A stretch of DNA of 64,000 nt, from contig JANOEH010000047.1 of NCBI GenBank assembly GCA_031413115.1, positions 703-64,702 on the forward strand. The letters are read 5' to 3'. This document shows positions 16,003-44,133 of the stretch, one piece after another (the stretch's first letter is position 1; each line of letters starts with the position of its first letter). Position numbers and translations under genes: made by a program. The notes beneath the pieces are model-generated. The model was not told the origin of the DNA, searched no databases, and worked only from the letters and a program-made list of their open reading frames with translations. The stretch comes from Candidatus Eiseniibacteriota bacterium (GTDB taxonomy: Bacteria > Eisenbacteria > RBG-16-71-46 > DASYSL01).

Positions 16003-16589
16003 CACAGGGGGGCCTCCAGGGTGGTCTCGTGGACGATACGGCCATCGGGAGCGGCCTGCGTGCCCGAGCCCTCGAAGCGCCGGCCCGAATCGGCGGCGCG
16101 CAGGACCTCGGGCGCTTGGTCGGTTTCGCCGAACGGTGTCGTCAGACGAATCACGTACATTCCCTGCGGAACCGGGCCGGCCAGCGGCACGAGTGGTCCG
16201 CTCATGAATTGCCCCAGCTCGACCGTCGCGCGCGAGGTGGTCATTGCCTCGAGCCCGCGAGGACCGTCGCGCAGCAGGCTCACCGTGATGCGGGTGCCGT
16301 CCGGAAAACGCGTCGAGCCGCCGACGACCAGAGCGCCGTCGGTGGCGCGCACCATGCGCAGCTCGTCGTAGGGTCCCGCCGTGTAGATGGCGACGAACGC
16401 CGCCCCGTCGCGGCTCGTGTCGGGCTTCACCGTCGGCGACGGGGCGGCGACCTCGGGCGGCGAGGGCGAATCGTCGCGCGCGGGCGGACGCTCGCCGCAG
16501 CCAGCGGCCGCGAAGGCGACGGCGCATGCGAGGAGAGCGCAGGCGGCGGCGGACCTGCGACGGTACGTACGGCGGAAGGTGGGCGACAT
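16002..16589 (-). CDS. Lipoprotein of unknown function (lipobox AAGC), first gene of the lipoprotein-GNAT-kinase operon
   Basis: MSPTFRRTYRRRSAAACALLACAVAFAAAGC lipoprotein signal. Confidence 0.6.
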   Translation of the reverse strand: MSPTFRRTYRRRSAAACALLACAVAFAAAGCGERPPARDDSPSPPEVAAPSPTVKPDTSRDGAAFVAIYTAGPYDELRMVRATDGALVVGGSTRFPDGTRITVSLLRDGPRGLEAMTTSRATVELGQFMSGPLVPLAGPVPQGMYVIRLTTPFGETDQAPEVLRAADSGRRFEGSGTQAAPDGRIVHETTLEAPL

Positions 16590-22701: not shown

Positions 22702-24034
22702 GCGTCGGCGAGTTCACGTTGCCGTTGTACTTGAGGTCGTTGCCGACCATCACCACGCTCTTCAGCATGTCGAGCGTGGTGCTCGCCACCGTGATCTCGG
22801 CGACCGGGAAGGCAACCTTGCCCTTCTCGATCCAGAAGCCCGCGGCCTGGTACGAGTAGGCGCCGGTTGTCTGGTTGTAGCCGAACGCGCCGGAGTCCAC
22901 CATCCAGAATCCGTGGTCGACCGAGGCGAAGATCTGCTCGACCGTGGAGGCGCCGTTGGGGATGTACAGGTTGCGCGGACCGATGCCCGGCGCGTTCTGG
23001 TAGCCGCGCACGGCGTTGCCCGTCGACTTCGCGCCGGCCCGGCGGCCCCAGTACGCGTTGTAGGCGAACATCTTCATCACGCCCTTGTCGATGAGCAGGT
23101 TCTTCCGCGTCGCGCCGCCCTCGCCGTCGAACGGCGCGGTGCCCGTGCCGCCCGGCAGGATGCCGTCGTCGATGAGCGTGACCAGGTCCGACGCGATCGG
23201 CTTGCCCATCATCTCGGTCAGGTACGACACCTTCTTGAACGCCTGCTCGCCCGAGAACGCGTTGAACAGGTTCTGGATCCAGTTGCCCGCGATGTCGGGG
23301 TGGAGGATGACGGGCACCTTCTGCGTCGGCACGCCGCGCGCGCCGATCTTGTCGATCGCGCGCTTGCCGGCCTCCTTGCCGATCGCCTCGGGCGTGCTCA
23401 GCGCGTCGAGGTGCGACTGGAACTCGCCGTAGCCGCCCGATTGCTGCTTGTCTCCATCGTCGGCGAGCGGATTGATGAAGCCGCCGATCCCCGTGTTGCG
23501 GTAGGTCAGGCTCTTCCCGGCCGAGCTCGCGTACCAGGTCTCGCCGATGCCGCTCTGCAGCGAGCAGCCGTCGGTGCGCTTGATGCGCGGGTCGTAGGCC
23601 AGCGCGGCCTTCTCGACGCCGCGCGCCCAGTCGATTTTCTGCTCGGCGGTGAGCGCCGCGACCGCGGGATCGTAGGTCTTGAGCCCGGCCGCGTCGGCCG
23701 CCATCGCCGGCGGCGTCGACGGAAGGCCCGCCGCCTCGTCGGCCTGCGCCTTCTTCGCCAGCTCGACGGCGCGCGTGGCGATGTCCTTGAGCGCGCTCTC
23801 GCGGAAGTCGCTGGTGTAGACCAGCGCGGTGCGCTTGTCGACGAACACGCGCAGGCCCAGGCCGCGGGTCTGCGCCTGCTTCAGGTTCTCGACTTCGCCC
23901 TGCAGCACGTCGACCCGGAACTGCGCGCCGGATTCGACCAGGGTGTCGGCCTCCTTCGCGCCCGCCTTGAGGGCGAAGCCGACGGCGGACTCCGCCGCCT
24001 TCTGGAGCGTCAGGTTCGTGTCGGCGCTAGGCAC
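22655..24034 (-). CDS. pmbA: PmbA/TldE metalloprotease-modulator family protein (GTG start, no signal peptide)
   Basis: TldD/PmbA-family fold. Ends ...MTISGRQAAG. Start overlaps the tldD end by 8 nt. Confidence 0.9.
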   Translation of the reverse strand: MPSADTNLTLQKAAESAVGFALKAGAKEADTLVESGAQFRVDVLQGEVENLKQAQTRGLGLRVFVDKRTALVYTSDFRESALKDIATRAVELAKKAQADEAAGLPSTPPAMAADAAGLKTYDPAVAALTAEQKIDWARGVEKAALAYDPRIKRTDGCSLQSGIGETWYASSAGKSLTYRNTGIGGFINPLADDGDKQQSGGYGEFQSHLDALSTPEAIGKEAGKRAIDKIGARGVPTQKVPVILHPDIAGNWIQNLFNAFSGEQAFKKVSYLTEMMGKPIASDLVTLIDDGILPGGTGTAPFDGEGGATRKNLLIDKGVMKMFAYNAYWGRRAGAKSTGNAVRGYQNAPGIGPRNLYIPNGASTVEQIFASVDHGFWMVDSGAFGYNQTTGAYSYQAAGFWIEKGKVAFPVAEITVASTTLDMLKSVVMVGNDLKYNGNVNSPTLKIAEMTISGRQAAG

Positions 24035-25610
24035 GGGTGCCTCCCACGGTCATCTCGGAGAACAGGACGGTGGGCTGTCCCACGCCGACGGGCTTGAACT
24101 GCCCGTCCTTGCCGCAGGAGCCCGTCTTCGTGTCGATCGACAGGTTGTCGCCCAGGCCCTCGACGCGCAGCATCGCGTCGGCGGCGTTGCCGGTGAGCGT
24201 CGCGCCCTTGACCGCCGACGTGATCTTCCCGTCCTCGATCAGGTACGCCTCGGAGACGACGAAGCTGAACATGCCGTCGGCCGGGTTGACTGATCCGCCG
24301 CCCAGGTTCTTGCAATAGAGGCCGTTCTTGACCGAGGCGATCAGGTCGGCGGGCTTCGATGTCCCGCCCGCGATGTACGTGTTGGTCATGCGCGGGATGG
24401 GGAAGTCCCGGTAGCTGTTGCGTCGCCCGTTGCCCGTGCTCGTGTTGCCGGTCAGGTCGGCGTTGAGGCGATCCCACAGGTAGCCCTTGAGGACACCCTT
24501 CTCGACCACGTGCGACTTCTGCGACGGCGTGCCCTCGTCGTCCACCTTGAACGAGCCGCGCGCGTTGGGCACGGTCGAGTCGTCGTAGATGTCGACGATG
24601 TCCGAGCATACCTTCTGGTTGAGCTGCTTCTCGCGGATCGACGTCTTCTTGCGGATGCCGTCACCCTCGAGCGAGTGGCCGAAACACTCGTGCACCAGCA
24701 CGCCGCCCCAGCCGTGGTTGATGACGACCGGGTAGCTGCCCGCCTTCGCGTCGACCGCGGTCAGCAGCGCGATCGCTGTGTCGGCCGCCTCGTGCGCGGT
24801 CTCCTCGGGCGTGCGCACCTTTTCGAAGTAGTCGACCTCGACCGCGCCTCCGGCCATGGCGATGCCGCCCTGGCGATTCGCCCCGTCGATCGCCGTGGGC
24901 ACCACTGCGAGGCGCGAGATGAACTGGCGATCCTCGGCCCATACGCCGTCGGAGTTGGCGACCAGGATCGCCTTCGACGTGTCGGCCATGATGACCTGCA
25001 CCTGCTTGATGCGCGGGTCGCGCGCGCGCGCCGCCTCGTTGCCGCGACGACACAGGTCGATCTTCTCGCCTTCGCTCGCGGTCAGCGGCGCGGGGCGGAC
25101 CAGCGCGAACGGCGCCTTCGCCTTCGTCGCCGCGAACGCCTTCGGCGCGCCCGCGGTCTTGCCCGTGGCGATGGCGGCCGCGACGCGCGCGGCTTCGCGC
25201 AGGCCTTCCATGCCGAACTCGTCGGCGTAGGCGTAGCCGACGGCGTCGCCGTCGATGACGCGCACACCCACGCCCGAGAGCACGCCGTACTGCGCCTGGC
25301 GCAGTTCGTTCTCGTCGAGCACGAAGTTGGTGTTGATCGTGTACTCGCCGTAGATCTCGGCGAATGGGGCGCCCTTCGACAGCGCCAGCTTGAGCAGTTC
25401 GGCGACCTGGTCCGGGGACAGGAACCGCGTCACCGGCGGCAACTCGGCCTGGGCGGCCTGGGCGAGCACCGGCGCCCAGGTGTCGAGCGCGAGGCGGGAC
25501 ACCGCAACCCCCGCGCCGACCGCCAGGCTGCCGCGCATGAAGTCGCGGCGGGAGATCGAACAGGCCCCGAGGGCGGGCCAGCGATGTTGGAACGAACCGT
25601 GAACGTGCAT
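24027..25610 (-). CDS. tldD: TldD metalloprotease with N-terminal twin-arginine (Tat) signal peptide
   Basis: HECFGHSLEGD (HExxxH) and GQPTVLFSEMTVGG C-terminus match TldD. N-terminus MHVHGSFQHRWPALGACSISRRDFMRGSLAVGAGVAVSRLA carries an SRRxFhR Tat motif. Start at ATG 25610. Confidence 0.9.
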   Translation of the reverse strand: MHVHGSFQHRWPALGACSISRRDFMRGSLAVGAGVAVSRLALDTWAPVLAQAAQAELPPVTRFLSPDQVAELLKLALSKGAPFAEIYGEYTINTNFVLDENELRQAQYGVLSGVGVRVIDGDAVGYAYADEFGMEGLREAARVAAAIATGKTAGAPKAFAATKAKAPFALVRPAPLTASEGEKIDLCRRGNEAARARDPRIKQVQVIMADTSKAILVANSDGVWAEDRQFISRLAVVPTAIDGANRQGGIAMAGGAVEVDYFEKVRTPEETAHEAADTAIALLTAVDAKAGSYPVVINHGWGGVLVHECFGHSLEGDGIRKKTSIREKQLNQKVCSDIVDIYDDSTVPNARGSFKVDDEGTPSQKSHVVEKGVLKGYLWDRLNADLTGNTSTGNGRRNSYRDFPIPRMTNTYIAGGTSKPADLIASVKNGLYCKNLGGGSVNPADGMFSFVVSEAYLIEDGKITSAVKGATLTGNAADAMLRVEGLGDNLSIDTKTGSCGKDGQFKPVGVGQPTVLFSEMTVGGTRA

Positions 25611-25872: not shown

Positions 25873-26814
25873 ATGGCGACGACTTCCCCTCCTCCCGGGC
25901 TCACCCAGAAGCGAGTTCGCCTCATCGGCGCACCGATGGACCTGGGCGCCGGCCGCCGCGGCGTCGACATGGGGCCGTCGGCCCTGCGCGTCGCGGGGCT
26001 CGGATCGCGCCTGCGCGAACTCGGCATCGCCGTCGAGGACTTCGGCGACGTGCGGGTCAAGCACCCCGAACAGCAGGAGCCGGGCGACTCGAAGCTCAAG
26101 TACAAGGGCCCGATCCTCGACACCTGCACCGAGCTGGCGATCGCCGTCGAGCAAGCGCTCGACGACGGCTGCGTGCCTGCGGTCCTGGGCGGCGACCACT
26201 CGGTCGCGATCGGCTCGACCGCCGGCCTGGGCTCGCACCTGCGCAAGAAGAACCAGCGCATGGGCCTCATCTGGTTCGACGCCCACGGGGACATGAATAC
26301 GCCGGAGACGTCCCCCTCGGGGAACATCCACGGCATGGCGCTGGCAATCGCCCTGGGGCTCGGCGATGCCGACCTCACCGGCATCGGCGGCTTCCGTCCC
26401 AAGGTCGATCCGTCGAACGCCGTGCTGGTCGGCCCGCGCTCGATCGACGACGCCGAGCGCCGGATCATCCAGCAAGCGGGCGTTCAGGTGTTCACCATGC
26501 GCGAGATCGACGAGCGGGGTATGCGCGCGGTGATGGAGGACGCGATGAAGGTCGCGCTGAACGGCGCAGCCGGGCTGCACGTCTCCTTCGACATGGACTG
26601 CATCGATCCGTCGTTCGCGCCCGGGACGGGCACGACGGTGCCGGGCGGGATCACCTACCGCGAGGCGCACCTGGCGATGGAGATGGTCGCCGACTCGCAG
26701 ACGCTGATGGCAATCGACCTGATGGAAGTGAACCCGGTGCTCGACGAGCACAACCAGACCGCGACGCTGGCCGTCGAGCTGTTTCTCTCGGCGATGGGCA
26801 AGCGCATCATGTAG
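25873..26814 (+). CDS. rocF: Arginase
   Basis: [25 protein letters not shown] (compare Bacillus arginase [24 protein letters not shown]), GGDHS, [9 protein letters not shown] and SFDMDCIDP binuclear-Mn motifs. Confidence 0.9.
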   Translation: [313 protein letters not shown]

Positions 26815-27002
26815 TCGTCGTCCTTCGCCGCCGGAGTCCCTTGGCCACCGCGCCGATCGTCGATGCTCCGACGGTCGGCGTCGTTGCATCGACGGTGGCG
26901 CCGGCCCGCCCGCAGCGCGGTCGGGCGTGCCCACCCCGGAAGTTGCGGCGTTTGGCCGGGTTCACGCCGGGTCGGGTCCGGCCGCAGCCCGGCCCCTCCG
27001 GC

Positions 27003-27017
27003 GGCACGGCGCTTGCT
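27003..27017 (+). promoter_or_regulatory. Sigma-54 (RpoN) -24/-12 promoter
   Basis: cGGCACG-gcgc-TTGCt matches TGGCACG-N4-TTGCW (GG-N10-GC exact spacing). It sits 46 nt upstream of the first small-protein ATG (27064) in the 250-bp gap after rocF. A GAF-sigma-54 activator is encoded 1.2 kb away. Confidence 0.55.
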
Positions 27018-27063
27018 GTTCGACGGGCACAGCCCCCGCTGGTCCGCCCCTGCGGAGAGCGCG

Positions 27064-27384
27064 ATGCATCTTCTCGCTCGCTTCGTCATCGCGACGTCCG
27101 TCGTGTTCGTCCTGCTCGGTTTCTGTTCCGCACCCGCCCGCGCCCAGGCCATCCCGGTGTGGCTGCCGGGGCTTTCCGTCAAGTTCATCGTGCGCACCAT
27201 GGAGCTCGGGGACCTGCTGAATGAGGCGATCGCCGATCGTCTCCGTCGCCGCCCGCTGTTCTACCCGCAGCCCGTCCTGCCGTCGCCGCCGGTGATCCTT
27301 CCCGTGATCGATCCCGCGACCGAGCCGGCTCCACTCCGCGCACCCGGTTCGCATCCGTCGCTGGAAGCGGTGCTCGTCCCGTGA
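27064..27384 (+). CDS. Small secreted protein P1 (signal peptide + amphipathic region + Pro-rich tail), paralog family member
   Basis: MHLLARFVIATSVVFVLLGFCSAPARAQA signal. ...VKFIVRTMELGDLLNEAIADRL...PQPVLPSPPVILPVIDPATEPAP. RBS ggagag. Confidence 0.55.
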   Translation: MHLLARFVIATSVVFVLLGFCSAPARAQAIPVWLPGLSVKFIVRTMELGDLLNEAIADRLRRRPLFYPQPVLPSPPVILPVIDPATEPAPLRAPGSHPSLEAVLVP

Positions 27385-27839
27385 TCGCGCGCCTTCCGGC
27401 AGCGGCCGCGCTGCTCGCCGCGCTGGCTCTCCTCCTCGCATCGTCGGCGTCCGCCGGTCCGCTGCGGAAGGCGCTGCGCTTCGCCATCCGGCACGCCACC
27501 CGCTGCGTCGAGGCCCGCCGGACGATCGAAACCGTGCGCGAGTGGAAGGACCGCTTGCGCGCTTCGATGCCCGCTCCCGTGCGCCCCCCGAACTCCGCCC
27601 CCGGGGACCAGGCCGATGAACTTCCCCACCCTGCGACGCTTCCGCCCGTGCGCCCTCGCTCTCGGGTTGCTCGTCGCTCTCGCCCAGCCCATCCTCGTCA
27701 CCACTCCGGTTCACGCGGCGACCGCACCGACGGTCACCGACGGGGGCGTTGTCAAGGCGCTGCGCGTCGCCTGGGGCCGCTACGGCCCGATCATCATCAC
27801 GCTGGCCTGGGACGTCGTGACGGACCTGTTCGCGGGTGA
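27381..27839 (+). CDS. Small secreted protein P2 (paralog). GTG start overlapping the P1 stop (GTGA). True 3' end uncertain: the frame stays open into P3 and may end earlier.
   Basis: MIARLPAAAALLAALALLLASSASAGP signal. LRKALRFAIRHATRCVEARRTIETVREWKDRL. Pro-rich MPAPVRPPNSAPGD. The later Arg/His-rich part looks non-coding. Confidence 0.35.
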   Translation: MIARLPAAAALLAALALLLASSASAGPLRKALRFAIRHATRCVEARRTIETVREWKDRLRASMPAPVRPPNSAPGDQADELPHPATLPPVRPRSRVARRSRPAHPRHHSGSRGDRTDGHRRGRCQGAARRLGPLRPDHHHAGLGRRDGPVRG

Positions 27840-27897
27840 CTCGCAGCCACCGCCGCCGACCGACCCGCCGCTGCCGGATCCGGACTTCGCGCCCTGA
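27616..27897 (+). CDS. Small secreted protein P3 (paralog)
   Basis: MNFPTLRRFRPCALALGLLVALAQPILVTTPVHA signal. VVKALRVAWGRYGPIIITLAWDVVTDLFAGDSQPPPPTDPPLPDP is clearly homologous to P4. Confidence 0.55.
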   Translation: MNFPTLRRFRPCALALGLLVALAQPILVTTPVHAATAPTVTDGGVVKALRVAWGRYGPIIITLAWDVVTDLFAGDSQPPPPTDPPLPDPDFAP

Positions 27898-27941
27898 CCC
27901 CCGCATGCGTCCCCTTCAATCGCCCCCGCGGGAGATCGACC

Positions 27942-28202
27942 ATGCTTCGTCCGTTTCGCCCGCTGCTGCTCGTGAGCACCCTGGTCCTCGCCGTTCCTGC
28001 GCTCGTTCCGGTCCGGGCCATGGCCGCGGCCAACCAACCGCAGGCCGACCTGGGCATTCCGCGGCCGGTCATGCGCTACCTCAAGGCCAACTGGCAGATG
28101 ATCTACATCGCGTTCGACGAGCTGATCGACGATCTCACCGGGTGCGACTGCCCGCCGCCGCCGCCCGTGCCGAATCCGGCTCTGTCCCCTGGGGTGGGCT
28201 AG
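27942..28202 (+). CDS. Small secreted protein P4 (paralog)
   Basis: MLRPFRPLLLVSTLVLAVPALVPVRA signal. VMRYLKANWQMIYIAFDELIDDLTGCDCPPPPPVPNP. RBS gggag. Stop shares a CTAG with the convergent activator stop. Confidence 0.55.
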   Translation: MLRPFRPLLLVSTLVLAVPALVPVRAMAAANQPQADLGIPRPVMRYLKANWQMIYIAFDELIDDLTGCDCPPPPPVPNPALSPGVG

Positions 28203-30277
28203 GAGTTCGGTGTGTCGATGGACCAGTCGCCGCGCCGATGGGCGTCGACGACCGCGTCGAGGTGGGGCAAGTAGGGGGCGGGCAGCTTGGGCAGGCGCGC
28301 CCGCGCCCGGTCTCGCGCGTCCTGGTCTGACGTCGCGTCGCGCGTGATCTCGCTCACGAACTCGAGGTAGCCCTCGAGTCGTGAGCGGGCGCGGTCCTCG
28401 AGATCGGGCATGAGGGCGATCGTCCGCGCGGCCCGCTTCGTGTCGAAGCCGGCGGCCGAAAGCGCCTTGAAGCACTCGCCCTGAAAGTAGTACGTCAGGC
28501 TCGAACGATCGGCCACGGGTGCGGCCGAGCGGCCGGCGGGGGACTTTCGAAGCCGCGCGAGGCTGCGCTCGGCCTGGCTCAGGTTGAAGTCGCAACGGCG
28601 CAACTGGTCGAGCACCCAGGCGCCTGTCGTCTCGACATCGCGCTTGAGCCCACGGCCGCCACCGTCCTCGCCGAAGGCGCGACCCACACCCTCGTCGTCG
28701 TCCCCGCCGTTGTCGTAACCCGGATGCGGCTGGGCCACGCGGCCACCGGTTGCCGGGCCGGTCGCGGTGGCATCGCCCAGGCCGCCCGCCTGCTGGAGCA
28801 AGTTTTCGAGGTCGACGAGCGTGGCCGCGCGACCCTGTGTGCGCAGGACAAGCGCGGTCAGCAGGTTGCGCAGCTCGCGGATATTGCCCGGAAACTCGTA
28901 CTCCTCGAGGCGGCGGAGCACGGCGGTGGCCAGGCGCGCCGGCGGCGCGCCCAGGTCGTCGGCGAGCCGGTCGAGCACGTGCTCGACGAGAATCGGGATG
29001 TCGCCGCGACGCTCGCGCAGCGCCGGCAGGCGCAGCCCGAAGACATTGAGGCGGTAGTACAGGTCTTCGCGGAAGCGCGCGCCCTTCACCTCCGAGAGCA
29101 GGTCACGGTTGGTCGCGGCGACGACTCGCACGTCGACCTGGATCGCCCGCTCGTCGCCGACGCGGCGGAAGCGGCCCTCCTGCAGCACGCGCAGCAGGCG
29201 CGTCTGCGCGCCCGATGGCAGCTCGCCGATCTCGTCGAGGAACAGCGTACCGCCATTGGCCAGCTCGAAGGCGCCGCGGCGATCGCGCGTCGCGCCGGTG
29301 AAGGCGCCGCGCACGTGGCCGAACAGCTCGCTCTCGATCAGCTCGCGCGGGATCGCGCCGCAATCCACCGTCTCGAACGGCCGGTCGGCGCGCGGCGACA
29401 GCGCATGGATGGCGCGGGCCGCCAGCTCCTTGCCCGTACCGGTCTCGCCGAGCACGAGCACCGGGCAGCGCGCTGGCGCGACCATCGCGATCTCGCGGAA
29501 GGCGCGCTCGAACGAAGGGCTGTTGCCGATGATCTCCTGCAGGATGGGAAATCGTCGCCGCAGTTCGACCAGGGAGAGCCGGCCCAGGTGGGCGGAGGCT
29601 CCCGCGTCGGGCTCGAGCGCGCCGGGCGCCTCGGTCGGCTCGACCGGGCCGTCGCCGGCCGCGCCGGGGTGCTGCGTCACCTGGTGATAGATGAGGTTCT
29701 CGAGGGCCTGCGTGCACAGTTGGGCGGCGGTGGCGAGCAGCTCGAGTTCGTCGTCGCCGTAGTTCTCGCCGAGCAGGCGCGGGCCCCACACCGCGAGGCC
29801 GTAGAACCCGCCGCGGCCGACAAGGGGGACGATCGCCTGCGCATCGAGGCGCGCCAGCCATTCGCCGTTGCGCCGGACGAAGTCCCGGCAGCGATCGCTC
29901 TCGGGCCCGGGCTTGAGCGAGACGCCGCTGCGGGCCTCGGCACTCTCGAGGAACACGAGGTCCTCGGGACTGAGCACGGGACGGATGTCCTGCACGATCC
30001 CTTCCTGGTAGCCGTAGTGCCGCCACAGGCGAAGCCGGCCGCGATCGGCTTCCCAGCGCAGCCCCGCGGCGGAGGCCGCCCCGACACCCGCCACGCACGA
30101 CAGCAGGAACTGCCCGACGGCCTGTCCTGGGTCGCCGGCGGAGAGCAGGCCGCGGGCGATTTCGAGGAGGGCGGTCAGTTCGAAGTTCTGGCGTTCGAGC
30201 GCTTCGTGGGTATGGCGTCCGTCGGCGCCGCGGCGGAGCGGACGGTCGGGCATGGACGCGTCTGGGGGACGGCTCAT
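28199..30277 (-). CDS. Sigma-54-dependent enhancer-binding protein (EBP): N-terminal GAF domain, AAA+ sigma-54 activation domain, Fis-like HTH and an extra ~130-aa C-terminal extension
   Basis: GETGTGKE Walker A, GAFTGA sigma-54 contact motif, FLDEIGELP, VRVVAATNRDL. HTH LSQAERSLARLRK, then an unusual long tail. Confidence 0.9.
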   Translation of the reverse strand: MSRPPDASMPDRPLRRGADGRHTHEALERQNFELTALLEIARGLLSAGDPGQAVGQFLLSCVAGVGAASAAGLRWEADRGRLRLWRHYGYQEGIVQDIRPVLSPEDLVFLESAEARSGVSLKPGPESDRCRDFVRRNGEWLARLDAQAIVPLVGRGGFYGLAVWGPRLLGENYGDDELELLATAAQLCTQALENLIYHQVTQHPGAAGDGPVEPTEAPGALEPDAGASAHLGRLSLVELRRRFPILQEIIGNSPSFERAFREIAMVAPARCPVLVLGETGTGKELAARAIHALSPRADRPFETVDCGAIPRELIESELFGHVRGAFTGATRDRRGAFELANGGTLFLDEIGELPSGAQTRLLRVLQEGRFRRVGDERAIQVDVRVVAATNRDLLSEVKGARFREDLYYRLNVFGLRLPALRERRGDIPILVEHVLDRLADDLGAPPARLATAVLRRLEEYEFPGNIRELRNLLTALVLRTQGRAATLVDLENLLQQAGGLGDATATGPATGGRVAQPHPGYDNGGDDDEGVGRAFGEDGGGRGLKRDVETTGAWVLDQLRRCDFNLSQAERSLARLRKSPAGRSAAPVADRSSLTYYFQGECFKALSAAGFDTKRAARTIALMPDLEDRARSRLEGYLEFVSEITRDATSDQDARDRARARLPKLPAPYLPHLDAVVDAHRRGDWSIDTPNS

Positions 30278-30334
30278 GGGGTCGAGCCTAGCACGGGCCG
30301 TCGGTCTCGGCTATCTTCGCGCCGGAGGATCGCC

Positions 30335-30991
30335 ATGCGCACATTGTCCACTTCCATGTTCGCCTGCGCTGCCGCGATGCTGCTGGCCGGCTGCGCAAGG
30401 GAGCCCGCCACCCCGTCCGGCCCCGTTGCCCCGGCCCGTCCCGAGGCCGCCCAGGCCGCGACCGTCGCCATGTGGCGCACCCAGTTCGACGGGCATAGGG
30501 CCCAGTGGGAGGCGGTCTTCGCCGGGCCCGACTCGCCGCTGCCCGAAGCCGCGCGGGCCGCGTTCCCCGGCCTGCGGTTCTATCCCTACGACGAGTCGTG
30601 GCGCTTCGTCGGGGACCTCGAGCGCCTGCATCCGCCACGCTTCATCGCGGTCCCGGCGACGAAGGGGCGGACGCAGTCGTACCTCGACTACGGTCGCTTT
30701 CCGCTCGAGCGCAACGGTGTCGTGGCCACGCTCGAGGTGCACCGCCCGGTCGACCACCCGGACCAGTTCTTCATCGCCTTCTTCGATTCCACGAACCACG
30801 GCGAGACCTACGAGGGTGGCCGCTACGTGCACCTCGACTCGGTCGACACGCACCGGTTCGTCCTCGATTTCAACCAGGCCTACGCCCCGTACTGCGCGTT
30901 CGACTCCTCGTGGATCTGCCCGCTGCCGCCGCGGGGGAACGCGTTGCCGTTCGCGGTGCGCGCGGGCATGATGGCGATGGGGAAGAAGTGA
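30335..30991 (+). CDS. DUF1684-family lipoprotein
   Basis: MRTLSTSMFACAAAMLLAGC lipobox. FYPYDESWRF...FIAFFDSTNHGETYEGGRYVHLD...YAPYCAFDSSWICPLPP matches DUF1684. RBS ggagga. Confidence 0.75.
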   Translation: MRTLSTSMFACAAAMLLAGCAREPATPSGPVAPARPEAAQAATVAMWRTQFDGHRAQWEAVFAGPDSPLPEAARAAFPGLRFYPYDESWRFVGDLERLHPPRFIAVPATKGRTQSYLDYGRFPLERNGVVATLEVHRPVDHPDQFFIAFFDSTNHGETYEGGRYVHLDSVDTHRFVLDFNQAYAPYCAFDSSWICPLPPRGNALPFAVRAGMMAMGKK

Positions 30992-31470
30992 CGCTCCACG
31001 CCCTGCTCGCCGCCGTTCTCGCCGCCGCGCCCTCCTCTTCGCCCGCGACGGGCGCGGACCTCGCGCGCCTCTCGTGGCTCGCCGGCTGCTGGAGTCGCAC
31101 CAGCCCGCGGCGCATCGTCGAGGAACAGTGGATGGCGCCCGCTGCCGGGCTGATGCTCGGCTCGGGCCGCACGCGCAACGTGGCCGATGGCGCGCTCGTC
31201 GAGTTCGAGCAGGTGCGCATCGAGACGCGCGGCGACACGCTCGTGTTCGTGGCCAGGCCGTCGCGCCAACCCGAGGCCGAGTTCACGGCGATCGCGGTCA
31301 CCGACTCGTTGGTCGTCTTCGAGAACCTCGCGCACGACTATCCCCAGCGCGTCGGGTATCGCCTGGTGCACGTCGATTCGCTCGCCGCGTTCATCGACGG
31401 CACCGTCGACGGCAAGCCGCGCACGGTCGAGTTTCCCTACCGGCGCGTGTCCTGTGCGAACCCGCGATGA
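30988..31470 (+). CDS. Hypothetical exported protein (GTG start overlapping the upstream stop)
   Basis: VTLHALLAAVLAAAPSSSPATGADLARLSWLAGCWS...EEQWMAPAAG...LVVFENLAHDYPQRVGYRL. GTGA coupling. The upstream part of the track ORF is junk. Confidence 0.55.
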   Translation: MTLHALLAAVLAAAPSSSPATGADLARLSWLAGCWSRTSPRRIVEEQWMAPAAGLMLGSGRTRNVADGALVEFEQVRIETRGDTLVFVARPSRQPEAEFTAIAVTDSLVVFENLAHDYPQRVGYRLVHVDSLAAFIDGTVDGKPRTVEFPYRRVSCANPR

Positions 31471-43840: not shown

Positions 43841-44133
43841 GGGTTGGGACCCTCCGGGAGGTCGCTCCACGCGAACCTCCTGCCGCTGTTCCAATGCAAC
43901 CGGCGTGCCCGGTCGCCGAAAGTGTCGTCGCCGGGCGCGTGACGGCCAAAGCGGGCGATGTGCACGGCGATTCGCACGCGGATTCGCAGGCTGCGTCGTT
44001 ACGGGGCTCCGGTGTGCGACCGGGCGGGGGAATCCCGCGCGACACGCTGAGGAATCCCACCCACGTTTGCGTCGAAACGGAAACCGCCCCGGGGACGGAA
44101 TCCCCGGGGCGGCACCTCGTGGTGGAACGGGGA

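What the first reader, a model, noticed from the sequence alone, without database searches (positions are those of the whole stretch)
26990..30277. Sigma-54 promoter driving a tandem array of four paralogous small secreted Pro-rich proteins, with a convergent GAF-sigma-54 activator
A near-consensus RpoN -24/-12 element (cGGCACG-gcgc-TTGCt, 27003-27017) sits 46 nt upstream of P1, the first of four consecutive small ORFs P1-P4 (27064-28202). Each ORF has a Sec signal peptide, a short amphipathic segment and a Pro-rich tail (PSPPVILPVIDP / PAPVRPPNSAP / SQPPPPTDPPLPDP / CDCPPPPPVPNP). P3 and P4 are clearly homologous (…ALRVAWGRYGPIIITLAWDVVTDLFAGD / …YLKANWQMIYIAFDELIDDLTGCD). P1 and P2 share the same pattern. 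P1/P2 are GTGA-coupled, and P2 overlaps P3 out of frame. Immediately convergent, with stop codons sharing a CTAG, is a sigma-54 enhancer-binding protein. It has a GAF sensor domain and an unusual ~130-aa extension after the Fis-type HTH. No function is recognisable for the small proteins. A locally expanded, sigma-54-controlled exported mini-protein family may be an undescribed module (signalling peptides, envelope or effector proteins?).
Basis: partly seen in the sequence, partly recalled or inferred. Interest (0 to 1): 0.7.

Follow-up and report, generated by a model that had tools for sequence, protein, structure and literature searches.

The report
Sigma-54 operon of small exported proteins
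In an uncultured soil bacterium (Candidatus Eisenbacteria), a conserved sigma-54 promoter with a likely activator-binding site drives four tiny exported proteins of unknown function next to their probable activator: a real, tidy, undescribed module whose control logic is classical.

Summary
A -24/-12 sigma-54 element (27002-27017) sits 46 nt upstream of four small genes, P1-P4, which end tail-to-tail against a sigma-54 enhancer-binding protein (EBP).

**Comparative support.**
- The window comes from a Candidatus Eisenbacteria genome.
- Eight related loci with a complete upstream region keep the same layout: arginase, promoter, 3-4 small genes, convergent EBP.
- The GGCA-N7-TTGC core survives in intergenic DNA that otherwise barely aligns.
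- New here: two dyads, CGTCG-N6-CGACG, exactly 21 bp apart, lie 73-139 bp upstream of the promoter in all eight loci. They are a strong candidate for the activator-binding site.

**The small genes are real.** They show codon bias and purifying selection. Each encodes a Sec-type signal peptide, one helix and a Pro-rich tail.

- Only P3 and P4 are demonstrably paralogous. P1 and P2 are separate families with the same architecture.
- The long P2/P3 overlap is specific to this lineage.
- The GAF domain is a sub-threshold Pfam match.

**Verdict.** No family has a known relative or function. The families are tiny (about 12-17 clusters among billions of proteins). Regulation is well supported and classical; function is open, and I favour an envelope role. 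Moderate interest.

The parts
26858..26873 (.). Dyad 1 of the candidate upstream activating sequence (CGTCGATGCTCCGACG). Its centre is 137 bp upstream of the -24 GG.
   Evidence: Only 3 exact CGTCG-N6-CGACG sites occur in the 64 kb window, and two of them are here. A tandem pair with the same 21-bp spacing is found in the same position in L005, L034, L035, L002, L003, L006 and L042. In L002 the second dyad has 2 mismatches, read by eye from the sequence.
26879..26894 (.). Dyad 2 of the candidate upstream activating sequence (CGTCGTTGCATCGACG). It lies 21 bp, centre to centre, from dyad 1 and 116 bp upstream of the -24 GG.
   Evidence: The half-sites are invariant across lineages while the N6 spacers differ.
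27002..27017 (+). Sigma-54 (RpoN) -24/-12 promoter element CGGCACGGCGCTTGCT. The predicted transcription start is near 27027-27028.
   Evidence: Orthologous elements lie 45-75 nt upstream of the first small gene: L005 CGGCATGGCGCTTGCT, L034 CGGCACGCCCCTTGCA, L035 CGGCACGCGGGTTGCA, L002 TGGCACCCGGCTTGCG, L003 TGGCACTCTCCTTGCT, L006 TGGCACCGTCCTTGCC, L042 CGGCACACCCCTTGCA.
27064..27384 (+). P1, 106 aa. It has a signal peptide (cleavage near ARA|Q), a conserved segment VPxWLPGLSVKLLVRxIEFxDLVREEIRERLxRRP, and a Pro-rich tail.
   Evidence: GC3 is 0.81. dN/dS against L005 is 0.19. Only 17 relatives of 101-106 aa were found, none named. A GGAG lies 8 nt before the ATG.
27381..27839 (+). P2, with a GTG start overlapping the P1 stop. 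It has a signal peptide and a basic amphipathic helix (mature net charge +8). Only about the first 78 codons (to roughly 27615) look constrained; the rest overlaps P3 out of frame.
   Evidence: GC3 is 0.89 up to the P3 start and 0.53 in the overlap. dN/dS is 0.46-0.86. P2 is 95-98 aa in L034, L035 and L042. No P2-like gene was found among the three small genes of L003 and L006. The 152-aa product is not on record in the source annotation.
27616..27897 (+). P3, 93 aa. It has a signal peptide, the segment VTDGGxxKALRVAWGRYGPIIITLAWDVVTDLF, and a Pro-rich tail ending in a conserved DPD[FY]xP.
   Evidence: GC3 is 0.88. dN/dS is 0.25. Orthologues occur in L001, L005, L034, L035, L039, L041 and L042. 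The P4-family HMM hits it at E 1.1e-7.
27942..28202 (+). P4, 86 aa. It has a signal peptide, a helix ...NWxMLYIAFDELIDDLTG, a C-x-C motif, and a Pro-rich tail.
   Evidence: GC3 is 0.86. dN/dS is 0.15. It has 13 relatives in the 5.8-billion-sequence database and 12 clusters among 1.84 billion representatives. The AlphaFold2 model shows a signal-peptide helix at residues 5-20, a mature helix at 41-66 with pLDDT about 80, and a disordered tail.
28199..30277 (-). Sigma-54 enhancer-binding protein, 692 aa. Domains: GAF-like N-terminal domain (residues about 56-193, nt 29699-30112); AAA+ sigma-54 interaction domain (residues 249-415, nt 29033-29533) with GAFTGA at residues 324-329; AAA lid (residues 421-497); a Gly/Asp-rich linker; and an all-helical C-terminal domain (residues about 543-692, nt 28202-28651) with a Fis-like part.

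Best explanation
This is one regulatory module, specific to a clade of Candidatus Eisenbacteria.

**Regulation.** The convergent EBP binds as dimers to two dyads (CGTCG-N6-CGACG, two helical turns apart) about 115-140 bp upstream. When its N-terminal GAF-like sensor is triggered by an unknown intracellular signal, its AAA+ domain (GAFTGA loop) remodels sigma-54 RNA polymerase held at the -24/-12 element (27002-27017). Transcription then starts near 27028.

**Product.** The transcript is one polycistronic mRNA carrying P1-P2-P3-P4. Coupling is by overlapping or closely spaced reading frames, and no terminator lies between the genes. Each product is exported by Sec and cleaved by signal peptidase I. 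This leaves 55-80-residue mini-proteins made of one helix and a flexible polyproline-type tail.

**Function.** I consider it most likely that they act in the periplasm or cell envelope, possibly as a mixed assembly of basic P2 with acidic P3 and P4. This would be an inducible envelope module, analogous in logic to the sigma-54-controlled psp and zraP systems.

**Feedback.** P4 and the EBP end within 0-30 nt of each other with no terminator. Induced transcription probably runs antisense into the EBP gene and could damp EBP expression.

**What is shown and what is inferred.** Shown: the sequence elements, their conservation, and the reality and architecture of the genes. Inferred: that this EBP binds the dyads, export and cleavage, envelope function, hetero-assembly, and antisense feedback.
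For: **Promoter**
- It is a near-consensus site. The GG/GC spacing and the GGCA...TTGC core are kept in 8 loci whose intergenic DNA is otherwise only 59% identical per column and partly unalignable.
- Sites with at most 2 mismatches occur only 6 times in 128 kb of window strand.

**Candidate activator site**
- Two of the three exact dyads in the window lie here.
- Pairs with exactly 21-bp spacing recur in all 8 loci, with invariant half-sites and variable spacers.
- No other pair 21 bp apart is present among the 31 one-mismatch sites in the window.
- In L035 a separate GC-rich hairpin followed by T residues lies downstream of the dyads, so the dyads are not simply the arginase terminator.

**EBP**
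- The AAA+ domain and GAFTGA are present. The predicted C-terminal domain contains a Fis-like fold.
- An EBP with this same rare C-terminal domain is adjacent and convergent in every locus long enough to show it.

**Small genes**
- Codon bias, dN/dS of 0.15-0.25 for P1, P3 and P4, and signal-peptide features kept across orthologues at 35-95% identity all support real, exported proteins.
- The model shows a helix plus a disordered tail. Charges are complementary.

**Operon and feedback**
- No terminator-like site was found from 26800 to 30600.
- Gaps between the P4 and EBP stops are -4 to 30 nt.
Against: - There are no expression data. The transcription start, sigma-54 dependence and EBP binding are all untested.
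- rpoN is not in the window, and the rest of the genome was not searched.
- The whole neighbourhood (TldD/PmbA, arginase, DUF1684, DUF6265, RidA, DinB) is syntenic in this clade. Adjacency of the EBP could therefore reflect shared ancestry rather than function.
- All loci come from one clade, with EBP identity of 78-99%. The number of independent lineages is small, about 3-4.
- Signal peptides were judged by eye, not by a predictor.
- Nothing ties the mini-proteins to an envelope role. No homology to PspA, ZraP, Spy or any other family was found.
Confidence: 0.62

Rival explanations
1. **Precursor-peptide system.** The conserved helix, which ends in an acidic D-E-x-x-D-D-x-x-G-(G/C) motif, would be a recognition or leader element. 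The variable Pro-rich tails (with C-x-C in P4) would be cut off after Sec export and act as signalling or antagonistic peptides. The conserved neighbouring TAT-exported TldD/PmbA peptidases might do the cutting.
For: - Tandem small genes with a conserved front and a more variable tail: in the P4 family, mean column conservation is 0.73 for the helix and 0.61 for the tail.
- Evolution is fast relative to the regulator. P4 is 59-63% identical where the EBP is 96% identical, and dN/dS is 4-10 times that of the EBP.
- Gly, Gly-Gly or Gly-Cys follows the acidic helix end in many members.
- A TAT-signal TldD lies at 24030-25598 and is conserved in L034 and L035.
- The resemblance to double-glycine leaders is recalled from memory, not tested.
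Against: - No C39-peptidase ABC exporter, modifying enzyme or immunity gene appears in the conserved +/-6 kb.
- Double-glycine precursors normally lack Sec signal peptides.
- Sec export alone would leave the peptides in the periplasm of a presumably two-membrane cell.
- The tails are acidic or neutral, unlike known Pro-rich antimicrobial peptides.
- A conserved structured part with a variable disordered tail is equally expected for any helix-plus-linker protein.
- The TldD genes are divergently oriented and separated from the array by arginase.
Confidence: 0.1
2. **Different regulator.** The array is sigma-54-dependent, but a different EBP serves it. The adjacent EBP would regulate another target, such as arginine or nitrogen metabolism, or the DUF1684-DUF6265-RidA-DinB genes. 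Its position would be inherited synteny only.
For: - The whole region is syntenic across the clade, so linkage alone is weak evidence.
- EBPs can act on distant targets (established knowledge).
- A second near-consensus sigma-54 site in the window (43910..43895, -) has no dyads nearby. The genome therefore probably has more than one EBP circuit.
Against: - No -24/-12 match with at most 2 mismatches lies upstream of arginase or of the DUF1684 side. The only nearby candidate, at 31075, is inside coding sequence.
- This is the only EBP in the 64 kb window.
- The dyad pair next to the promoter and the rare EBP C-terminal domain show the same restricted distribution.
- The tight convergent junction is kept in all lineages.
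Confidence: 0.13
3. **Chance motif.** The -24/-12 match would be a chance GC-rich motif, and the small genes would be transcribed by read-through from arginase or from an unrecognised housekeeping promoter.
For: - In a 70% GC window, a one-mismatch match to TGGCAC-N5-TTGCW is expected about once by chance: 0.99 expected, 2 found.
- No strong terminator follows arginase in the window itself.
Against: - The element recurs at the same place in eight loci, while its N5 spacer and its flanks vary.
- No sigma-70-like promoter was found in 26500-30600.
- L035 has a terminator-like hairpin between arginase and the promoter.
Confidence: 0.05

Closest known systems
Classical bacterial enhancer-binding-protein / sigma-54 circuits of the NtrC/NifA/FhlA type, with a GAF sensor, an AAA+ domain with GAFTGA, and a Fis-type helix-turn-helix that binds tandem dyads about 100-150 bp upstream of a -24/-12 promoter
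   Same: The overall domain order is the same. The AAA+ sigma-54 interaction domain and GAFTGA are present. The promoter has GG-N10-GC geometry. Tandem dyad sites lie two helical turns apart at the usual distance upstream. The regulator is encoded next to its presumed target.
   Different: The DNA-binding region does not match Pfam HTH_8. It is embedded in a roughly 150-residue all-helical domain found in only about 11 database proteins. The sensor domain is only a sub-threshold GAF match. The regulator is convergent and abuts the end of the target operon. The cargo has no known function.
Phage-shock (pspF / pspABCDE) and zraP / zraSR envelope-stress systems of Enterobacteria
   Same: In both, a sigma-54 promoter controlled by an adjacent EBP drives small envelope or periplasmic proteins (PspB, PspC, PspD; ZraP has a signal peptide and helices). 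This is the closest analogy for how the module may work.
   Different: P1-P4 have no sequence relationship to PspA, PspB, PspC or ZraP/Spy/CpxP; no Pfam or NCBIfam match was found. PspF lacks a sensor domain and ZraR is a response regulator, whereas this EBP has a GAF-like N-terminus. The gene arrangement is convergent rather than divergent. The Pro-rich tails have no counterpart.
Bacillus subtilis RocR / SigL control of arginine catabolism (rocABC, rocDEF including the arginase rocF)
   Same: An arginase gene and a sigma-54 activator are neighbours. Upstream activating sequences in that system can lie at gene ends. This comparison comes from memory of the literature.
   Different: Here arginase lies upstream of the sigma-54 promoter, not downstream, and no -24/-12 element precedes it. 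The genes under the promoter are small exported proteins, not catabolic enzymes. The sensor is GAF-like, not PAS.
Double-glycine-leader bacteriocin or RiPP precursor arrays
   Same: Both have tandem small genes, a conserved front part ending in an acidic helix followed by Gly-Gly or Gly-Cys, and a more variable C-terminal part.
   Different: The proteins here carry Sec signal peptides. No dedicated exporter, peptidase, modification or immunity genes lie nearby. The tails are Pro-rich and acidic.

Membership tests
Sigma-54 (RpoN) dependent promoter | GG and GC doublets 10 nt apart, matching TGGCAC-N5-TTGCW | tested here: met
   CGGCACGGCGCTTGCT at 27002-27017 has 1 mismatch to the consensus.
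Sigma-54 (RpoN) dependent promoter | Positioned shortly upstream of a gene and conserved in orthologous loci | tested here: met
   The element ends 46 nt before P1. Equivalent elements lie 45-75 nt upstream of the first small gene in L002, L003, L005, L006, L034, L035 and L042.
Sigma-54 (RpoN) dependent promoter | rpoN present in the genome, and a transcript start that depends on sigma-54 | not testable with these tools
   No RpoN-box ORF occurs in the window or the fetched loci. The rest of the genome and expression data are not available. The presence of a GAFTGA-bearing EBP implies sigma-54 only indirectly.
Bacterial enhancer-binding protein (NtrC/NifA family) | AAA+ sigma-54 interaction domain (PF00158) with a GAFTGA loop | tested here: met
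   PF00158 matches at E 2.2e-69 over residues 249-415. GAFTGA is at residues 324-329.
Bacterial enhancer-binding protein (NtrC/NifA family) | C-terminal Fis-type helix-turn-helix (Pfam HTH_8) | tested here: inconclusive
Bacterial enhancer-binding protein (NtrC/NifA family) | N-terminal GAF sensor domain | tested here: inconclusive
   GAF_2 matches at E 0.002 with 18.8 bits, below the gathering score of 28.6, but covers nearly the full profile. No PDB sequence match was found.
Bacterial enhancer-binding protein (NtrC/NifA family) | Dyad-symmetric upstream activating sites bound by the EBP | tested here: inconclusive
   A conserved tandem CGTCG-N6-CGACG pair is present. Binding by this EBP was not tested.
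Psp system / ZraP-Spy-CpxP periplasmic stress proteins | Homology to PspA/IM30, PspB, PspC, or the LTXXQ/ZraP family | tested here: not met
   P1-P4 have no Pfam or NCBIfam match at E up to 1.
Phage spanins (Rz / Rz1) | A Pro-rich outer-membrane lipoprotein with a lipobox Cys, a partner with an N-terminal membrane anchor, and a lysis-cassette context | tested here: not met
   No conserved lipobox is present; the P1 Cys is absent in L034. No PHROGs match was found. The neighbours are chromosomal housekeeping genes.
Type IV pilin under PilR / sigma-54 | A short basic leader ending in Gly, followed by F/M-T-L-I-E and a hydrophobic helix | tested here: not met
   The P1-P4 N-termini are ordinary Sec-type signal peptides with A-x-A sites and no G|FTLIE motif (sequences).
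Double-glycine-leader peptide precursors | No Sec signal peptide, and a C39-peptidase ABC exporter or modification genes in the cluster | tested here: not met
   Sec-type signal peptides are present. The conserved neighbourhood contains no such genes.

The most novel reading that the evidence does not exclude
The array would be a new kind of peptide system that is controlled by sigma-54 and exported by Sec. The conserved helix, with its acidic end followed by Gly-Gly or Gly-Cys, would serve as a recognition element for periplasmic processing. The adjacent TAT-exported TldD/PmbA peptidases might carry out that processing. The fast-evolving Pro-rich tails (C-x-C in P4, DPD[FY]xP at the end of P3) would be released as signalling or antagonistic peptides in an uncultured phylum. 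Convergent transcription into the activator gene would act as a built-in off-switch.
Probability: 0.08. Interest if true: 0.8.

Novelty: new variant of a known kind. Interest (0 to 1): 0.42.

Why it matters
**What is new.** The finding adds three unannotated small-protein families (P1, P2 and P3/P4). It also adds a new C-terminal domain of a sigma-54 activator. Together they form a complete, compact cis-regulatory unit (tandem dyads, -24/-12 element, operon, regulator) in Candidatus Eisenbacteria, a phylum with no cultured member and no experimental genetics.

**Why it is useful.** The unit is under 3.5 kb and all its parts are defined. It can be rebuilt in a sigma-54 host to test the promoter, the binding site and the sensor. 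This would give a first handle on sigma-54 regulation in this phylum.

**If the mini-proteins form an envelope assembly or are processed to peptides,** they would add a new class of small exported proteins, a group that annotation pipelines largely miss.

**Limits.** The regulatory logic itself is textbook, and the families are confined to one clade. The general impact is moderate.

Tried and rejected
**Annotation searches, all empty**
- P1-P4 against Pfam, NCBIfam, PHROGs and PADLOC: nothing.
- P1 and P4 profiles against PDB sequences: only noise, E at least 0.3.
- Rfam over the whole window: nothing.

**Direct homology tests**
- BLASTP of P3 against P4 (E 1.8) and of P1 against P2 (E 0.013, confined to the Pro-rich part) was not convincing. 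Profile methods were needed.
- Those profile methods support only P3/P4 plus the B-type gene, and more weakly the C- and A-type genes, of other lineages.

**A second recurring sigma-54-like motif**
- TGGCTCGCCGGCTGCT occurs at window 31075, L002 2977, L004 4077, L005 5203 and L034 9284. It looked like a promoter on the other side of the EBP.
- It lies in coding sequence and encodes the conserved S-W-L-A-G-C-W of the DUF6265 protein. Rejected.

**Dyads as the arginase terminator**
- This is unlikely. The half-site sequences are invariant rather than covarying.
- L035 has a separate hairpin followed by a T-run downstream of the dyads.

**Families considered and failed**
- Spanins, type IV pilins, the psp and zraP families, and double-glycine precursors each fail a defining feature (see the membership table).

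**Arginase under the same promoter (RocR-like)**
- No -24/-12 element lies upstream of arginase.

**Searches that gave little**
- The metagenome scan with the P4 profile gave only two more loci.
- The afdb50 fold library was unavailable.
- Foldseek against the PDB found no match to the whole EBP C-terminal domain.
- Literature searches for Eisenbacteria with sigma-54, or for sigma-54 with small secreted proline-rich proteins, returned nothing.
- The first exact look-up of the EBP failed; the same sequence without the stop codon was found.

Full report
**What is in the sequence**

The window is 70% G+C. Between the arginase gene (25876-26814, Pfam Arginase E 4e-77) and a convergent 692-aa gene lie four small plus-strand ORFs:
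- P1, 27064-27384
- P2, 27381-27839
- P3, 27616-27897
- P4, 27942-28202

P1 and P2 overlap as GTGA. P2 runs 224 nt into P3 in another frame. The P4 and EBP stop codons share CTAG at 28199-28202.

CGGCACGGCGCTTGCT lies at 27002-27017 and ends 46 nt before the P1 ATG. GGCACG-N4-TTGC occurs twice in the window against 0.23 expected. On its own this is suggestive, not decisive. With one mismatch allowed, about one match to TGGCAC-N5-TTGCW is expected by chance.

**Are the small ORFs genes?**

Yes, for P1, P3 and P4.
- Third-position G+C is 0.81-0.88, like the EBP at 0.89 and arginase at 0.92. The long ORFs on the opposite strand show no such bias.
- Against the closest relative (L005, EBP 99% identical), dN/dS is 0.19 for P1, 0.25 for P3 and 0.15 for P4. 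The EBP gives 0.04.
- The source assembly called P1, P3, P4 and the EBP as genes, all unnamed.

P2 is weaker.
- Codon bias holds only up to the P3 start (0.89, then 0.53), and dN/dS is 0.46-0.86.
- In L034, L035 and L042, P2 is 95-98 aa and stops at or just before the P3 start. The long overlap is therefore a frame change specific to the window lineage.
- The three-gene arrays of L003 and L006 contain no P2-like gene.

**Architecture of the products**

- Each product has a basic n-region, a hydrophobic core of 12-16 residues and an A-x-A-type site: ARA|Q in P1, ASA|G in P2, VHA|A in P3, AMA|A in P4. These features persist in orthologues that are only 35-60% identical.
- Signal peptides were assigned by inspection. 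No predictor was available.
- The AlphaFold2 model of P4, built from a 13-sequence alignment, shows the signal-peptide helix, one mature helix at residues 41-66 (pLDDT about 80) and a disordered tail.
- The tails are 23-30% Pro. Mature P2 is basic (+8), while P3 (-4) and P4 (-3) are acidic.

**Are the four paralogous?**

Only in part.
- Pairwise BLASTP is not significant.
- A profile of 21 P4-family proteins finds the P3 ORF at E 1e-7 and nothing else among 734 window ORFs. The P1 and P2 profiles find only themselves.
- hhalign on the mature parts, each value for a single comparison, gives P4-B 1e-5, A-B 2e-4, P3-P4 1e-3 and B-C 1e-3. A, B and C are the first, second and third small genes of L003 and L006. 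P1 and P2 against the other small-protein families are not significant.
- Database members bridge the P3 and P4 groups. P0032 matches the P4 profile and ends in the P3-like DDPDYTP. P0035 is B-type.
- So P3 and P4 are paralogues. P1 and P2 are separate families that share the design of signal peptide, helix and Pro-rich tail.

**Distribution**

- The EBP search placed the window in Candidatus Eisenbacteria (Eiseniibacteriota) metagenome-assembled genomes. L005 is 99% identical, L001 96%, and L002, L003, L004 and L006 are 78-82%.
- The small families are very small. P4 has 13 proteins in a 5.8-billion-sequence database and 12 clusters in an exhaustive HMM search of 1.84 billion representatives. 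P1 has 17 proteins. None is named.
- Every locus long enough to judge has the same order: TldD/PmbA, arginase, 3-4 small genes, convergent EBP, DUF1684, DUF6265, RidA, DinB.
- The small proteins evolve much faster than the regulator. P3 and P4 are 59-63% identical where the EBP is 96% identical.

**The promoter is conserved**

A -24/-12 element lies 45-75 nt upstream of the first small gene in every locus with a complete upstream region:

| Locus | Element |
|---|---|
| window | CGGCACGGCGCTTGCT |
| L005 | CGGCATGGCGCTTGCT |
| L034 | CGGCACGCCCCTTGCA |
| L035 | CGGCACGCGGGTTGCA |
| L042 | CGGCACACCCCTTGCA |
| L002 | TGGCACCCGGCTTGCG |
| L003 | TGGCACTCTCCTTGCT |
| L006 | TGGCACCGTCCTTGCC |

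- GGCA and TTGC and their spacing are fixed, while the spacer between them varies. The surrounding intergenic DNA aligns poorly, at 59% mean column identity with large gaps.
- Sites with at most two mismatches occur 6 times in 128 kb of window strand. A hit on the correct strand of a 250-nt spacer therefore has a chance of about 0.01 per independent lineage (my calculation).
- No sigma-70-like promoter was found in the region.

**A candidate activator-binding site (new)**

- Only three exact copies of the palindrome CGTCG-N6-CGACG occur in the window (1.5 expected). Two of them lie 21 bp apart at 26858-26873 and 26879-26894, which is 137 and 116 bp upstream of the -24 GG.
- The same tandem pair, always exactly 21 bp centre to centre, is present in L005, L034 and L042 (exact matches) and in L035, L003 and L006 (at most one mismatch per site). 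In L002 one site is exact and the second has two mismatches, read by eye. The pairs lie 73-139 bp upstream of the promoter.
- The half-sites are invariant while the six-base spacers differ. This is the pattern expected for a protein-binding dyad rather than an RNA hairpin.
- L035 has a separate terminator-like hairpin after the dyads.
- Among the 31 one-mismatch sites in the window, no other pair is 21 bp apart.
- That the adjacent EBP binds here is an inference from position and co-distribution.

**The regulator**

- Residues 249-415 are a sigma-54 interaction domain (E 2e-69) with GAFTGA at 324-329, followed by the AAA lid.
- The N-terminal domain gives only a sub-threshold GAF_2 match, though it covers nearly the whole profile. 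It has no PDB sequence relative. It is extremely conserved among orthologues, with 90% mean column identity.
- After a Gly/Asp-rich linker, residues about 543-692 match nothing in Pfam or in PDB sequences. Only 11 database relatives were found.
- The AlphaFold2 model of this region (mean pLDDT 78, core above 90) is eight helices.
- Foldseek finds no whole-domain match, only a weak local match to 2m8g.
- A Fis-like DNA-binding element is therefore plausible. It sits inside, or is followed by, a helical extension of roughly 90-115 residues that is specific to this lineage.

**Mechanism proposed**

- The EBP binds the tandem dyads and senses an unknown signal through the GAF-like domain. It then activates sigma-54 polymerase at 27002-27017.
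- P1-P4 are transcribed as one message. The reading frames are coupled or separated by at most 44 nt, and no terminator lies between them.
- The products are exported by Sec and act in the envelope.
- The operon and the EBP gene end within -4 to 30 nt of each other in all lineages, with no terminator. Induced transcription should therefore run antisense into the EBP gene, which offers a possible negative feedback.
- The regulatory steps are well supported by comparative evidence but not demonstrated. Export is inferred from sequence. The envelope role, the hetero-assembly and the feedback are hypotheses.

**Comparison with known systems**

- In control logic this is a standard EBP / sigma-54 circuit.
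- In theme, with an adjacent EBP driving small envelope proteins, it resembles the psp and zraP systems, but no homology supports membership.
- Spanins, type IV pilins, double-glycine precursors and RocR-type arginase control were considered. Each fails a defining feature (see the membership table).
- The precursor-peptide reading stays open at low probability. It draws on the acidic helix end followed by Gly-Gly or Gly-Cys, the variable tails, the fast evolution and the neighbouring TAT-exported TldD/PmbA.

**Verdict**

The feature is real and clearly defined. It belongs to one clade of an uncultured phylum and has a classical control design. Its novelty lies in the orphan cargo families, the unusual EBP C-terminal domain and the newly recognised dyad pair. 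Interest is moderate, at 0.42.

Noticed in passing
window 43910-43895 (-), with ORFs at 43840-43553 (-) and 44421-44134 (-): This is the only other GGCACG-N4-TTGC site in the window (GGGCACGCCGGTTGCA). It lies about 55 nt upstream of a 95-aa ORF with a lipoprotein signal (…LLVAGLSGC…). A second similar small lipoprotein ORF, with a KPKKPKKPKKP tail, lies just upstream. Neither ORF has a Pfam match. No CGTCG-N6-CGACG dyads are nearby. Both near-consensus sigma-54 sites in the window therefore precede small exported proteins.
   Followed up: partly
window 24030-25598 (-), and upstream genes in L034 and L035: TldD/PmbA-family metallopeptidase genes, one with a TAT signal (PF10518, E 1e-5), are conserved immediately upstream of arginase in all long loci. 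A link to processing of the small proteins is conceivable but untested.
   Followed up: partly
window 31075-31090 (+); L002 2977, L004 4077, L005 5203, L034 9284: The recurring sigma-54-like motif TGGCTCGCCGGCTGCT on the far side of the EBP lies in coding sequence, where it encodes S-W-L-A-G-C-W of the DUF6265 protein. Its conservation comes from the protein, not from a promoter. The L034 gene call for this protein starts too late.
   Followed up: yes
window 27560-27620, compared with L034 5620-5675: The 3' end of P2 is in a different frame in different lineages. Its stop overlaps the P3 ATG in L034 and L042, whereas the window and L005 have a 152-aa read-through. The P2 tail tolerates frameshifts and seems barely constrained.
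   Followed up: partly
L034 6311-8388 (-): In this metagenome contig the EBP orthologue is called as two overlapping ORFs of 309 and 397 aa. This points to a frameshift, either an assembly error or a pseudogene.
   Followed up: no
L002 8373-8750 (-); L003 and L006 arrays; L037: Copy number and content of the array vary. L003 and L006 have three genes (A, B, C). The third ORF of L002 lacks a Pro-rich tail and has poor codon bias. L037 carries three more divergent members in a row.
   Followed up: partly
window 29543-30277 (-), EBP residues 1-245: The sensor domain of the EBP is almost invariant across orthologues (81-97% identity, 90% mean column identity). The proteins it presumably controls are 35-63% identical over the same distances.
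   Followed up: no
window 16311-16326: This is the third exact CGTCG-N6-CGACG dyad in the window (CGTCGAGCCGCCGACG). It is single rather than paired, and its context was not examined.
   Followed up: no
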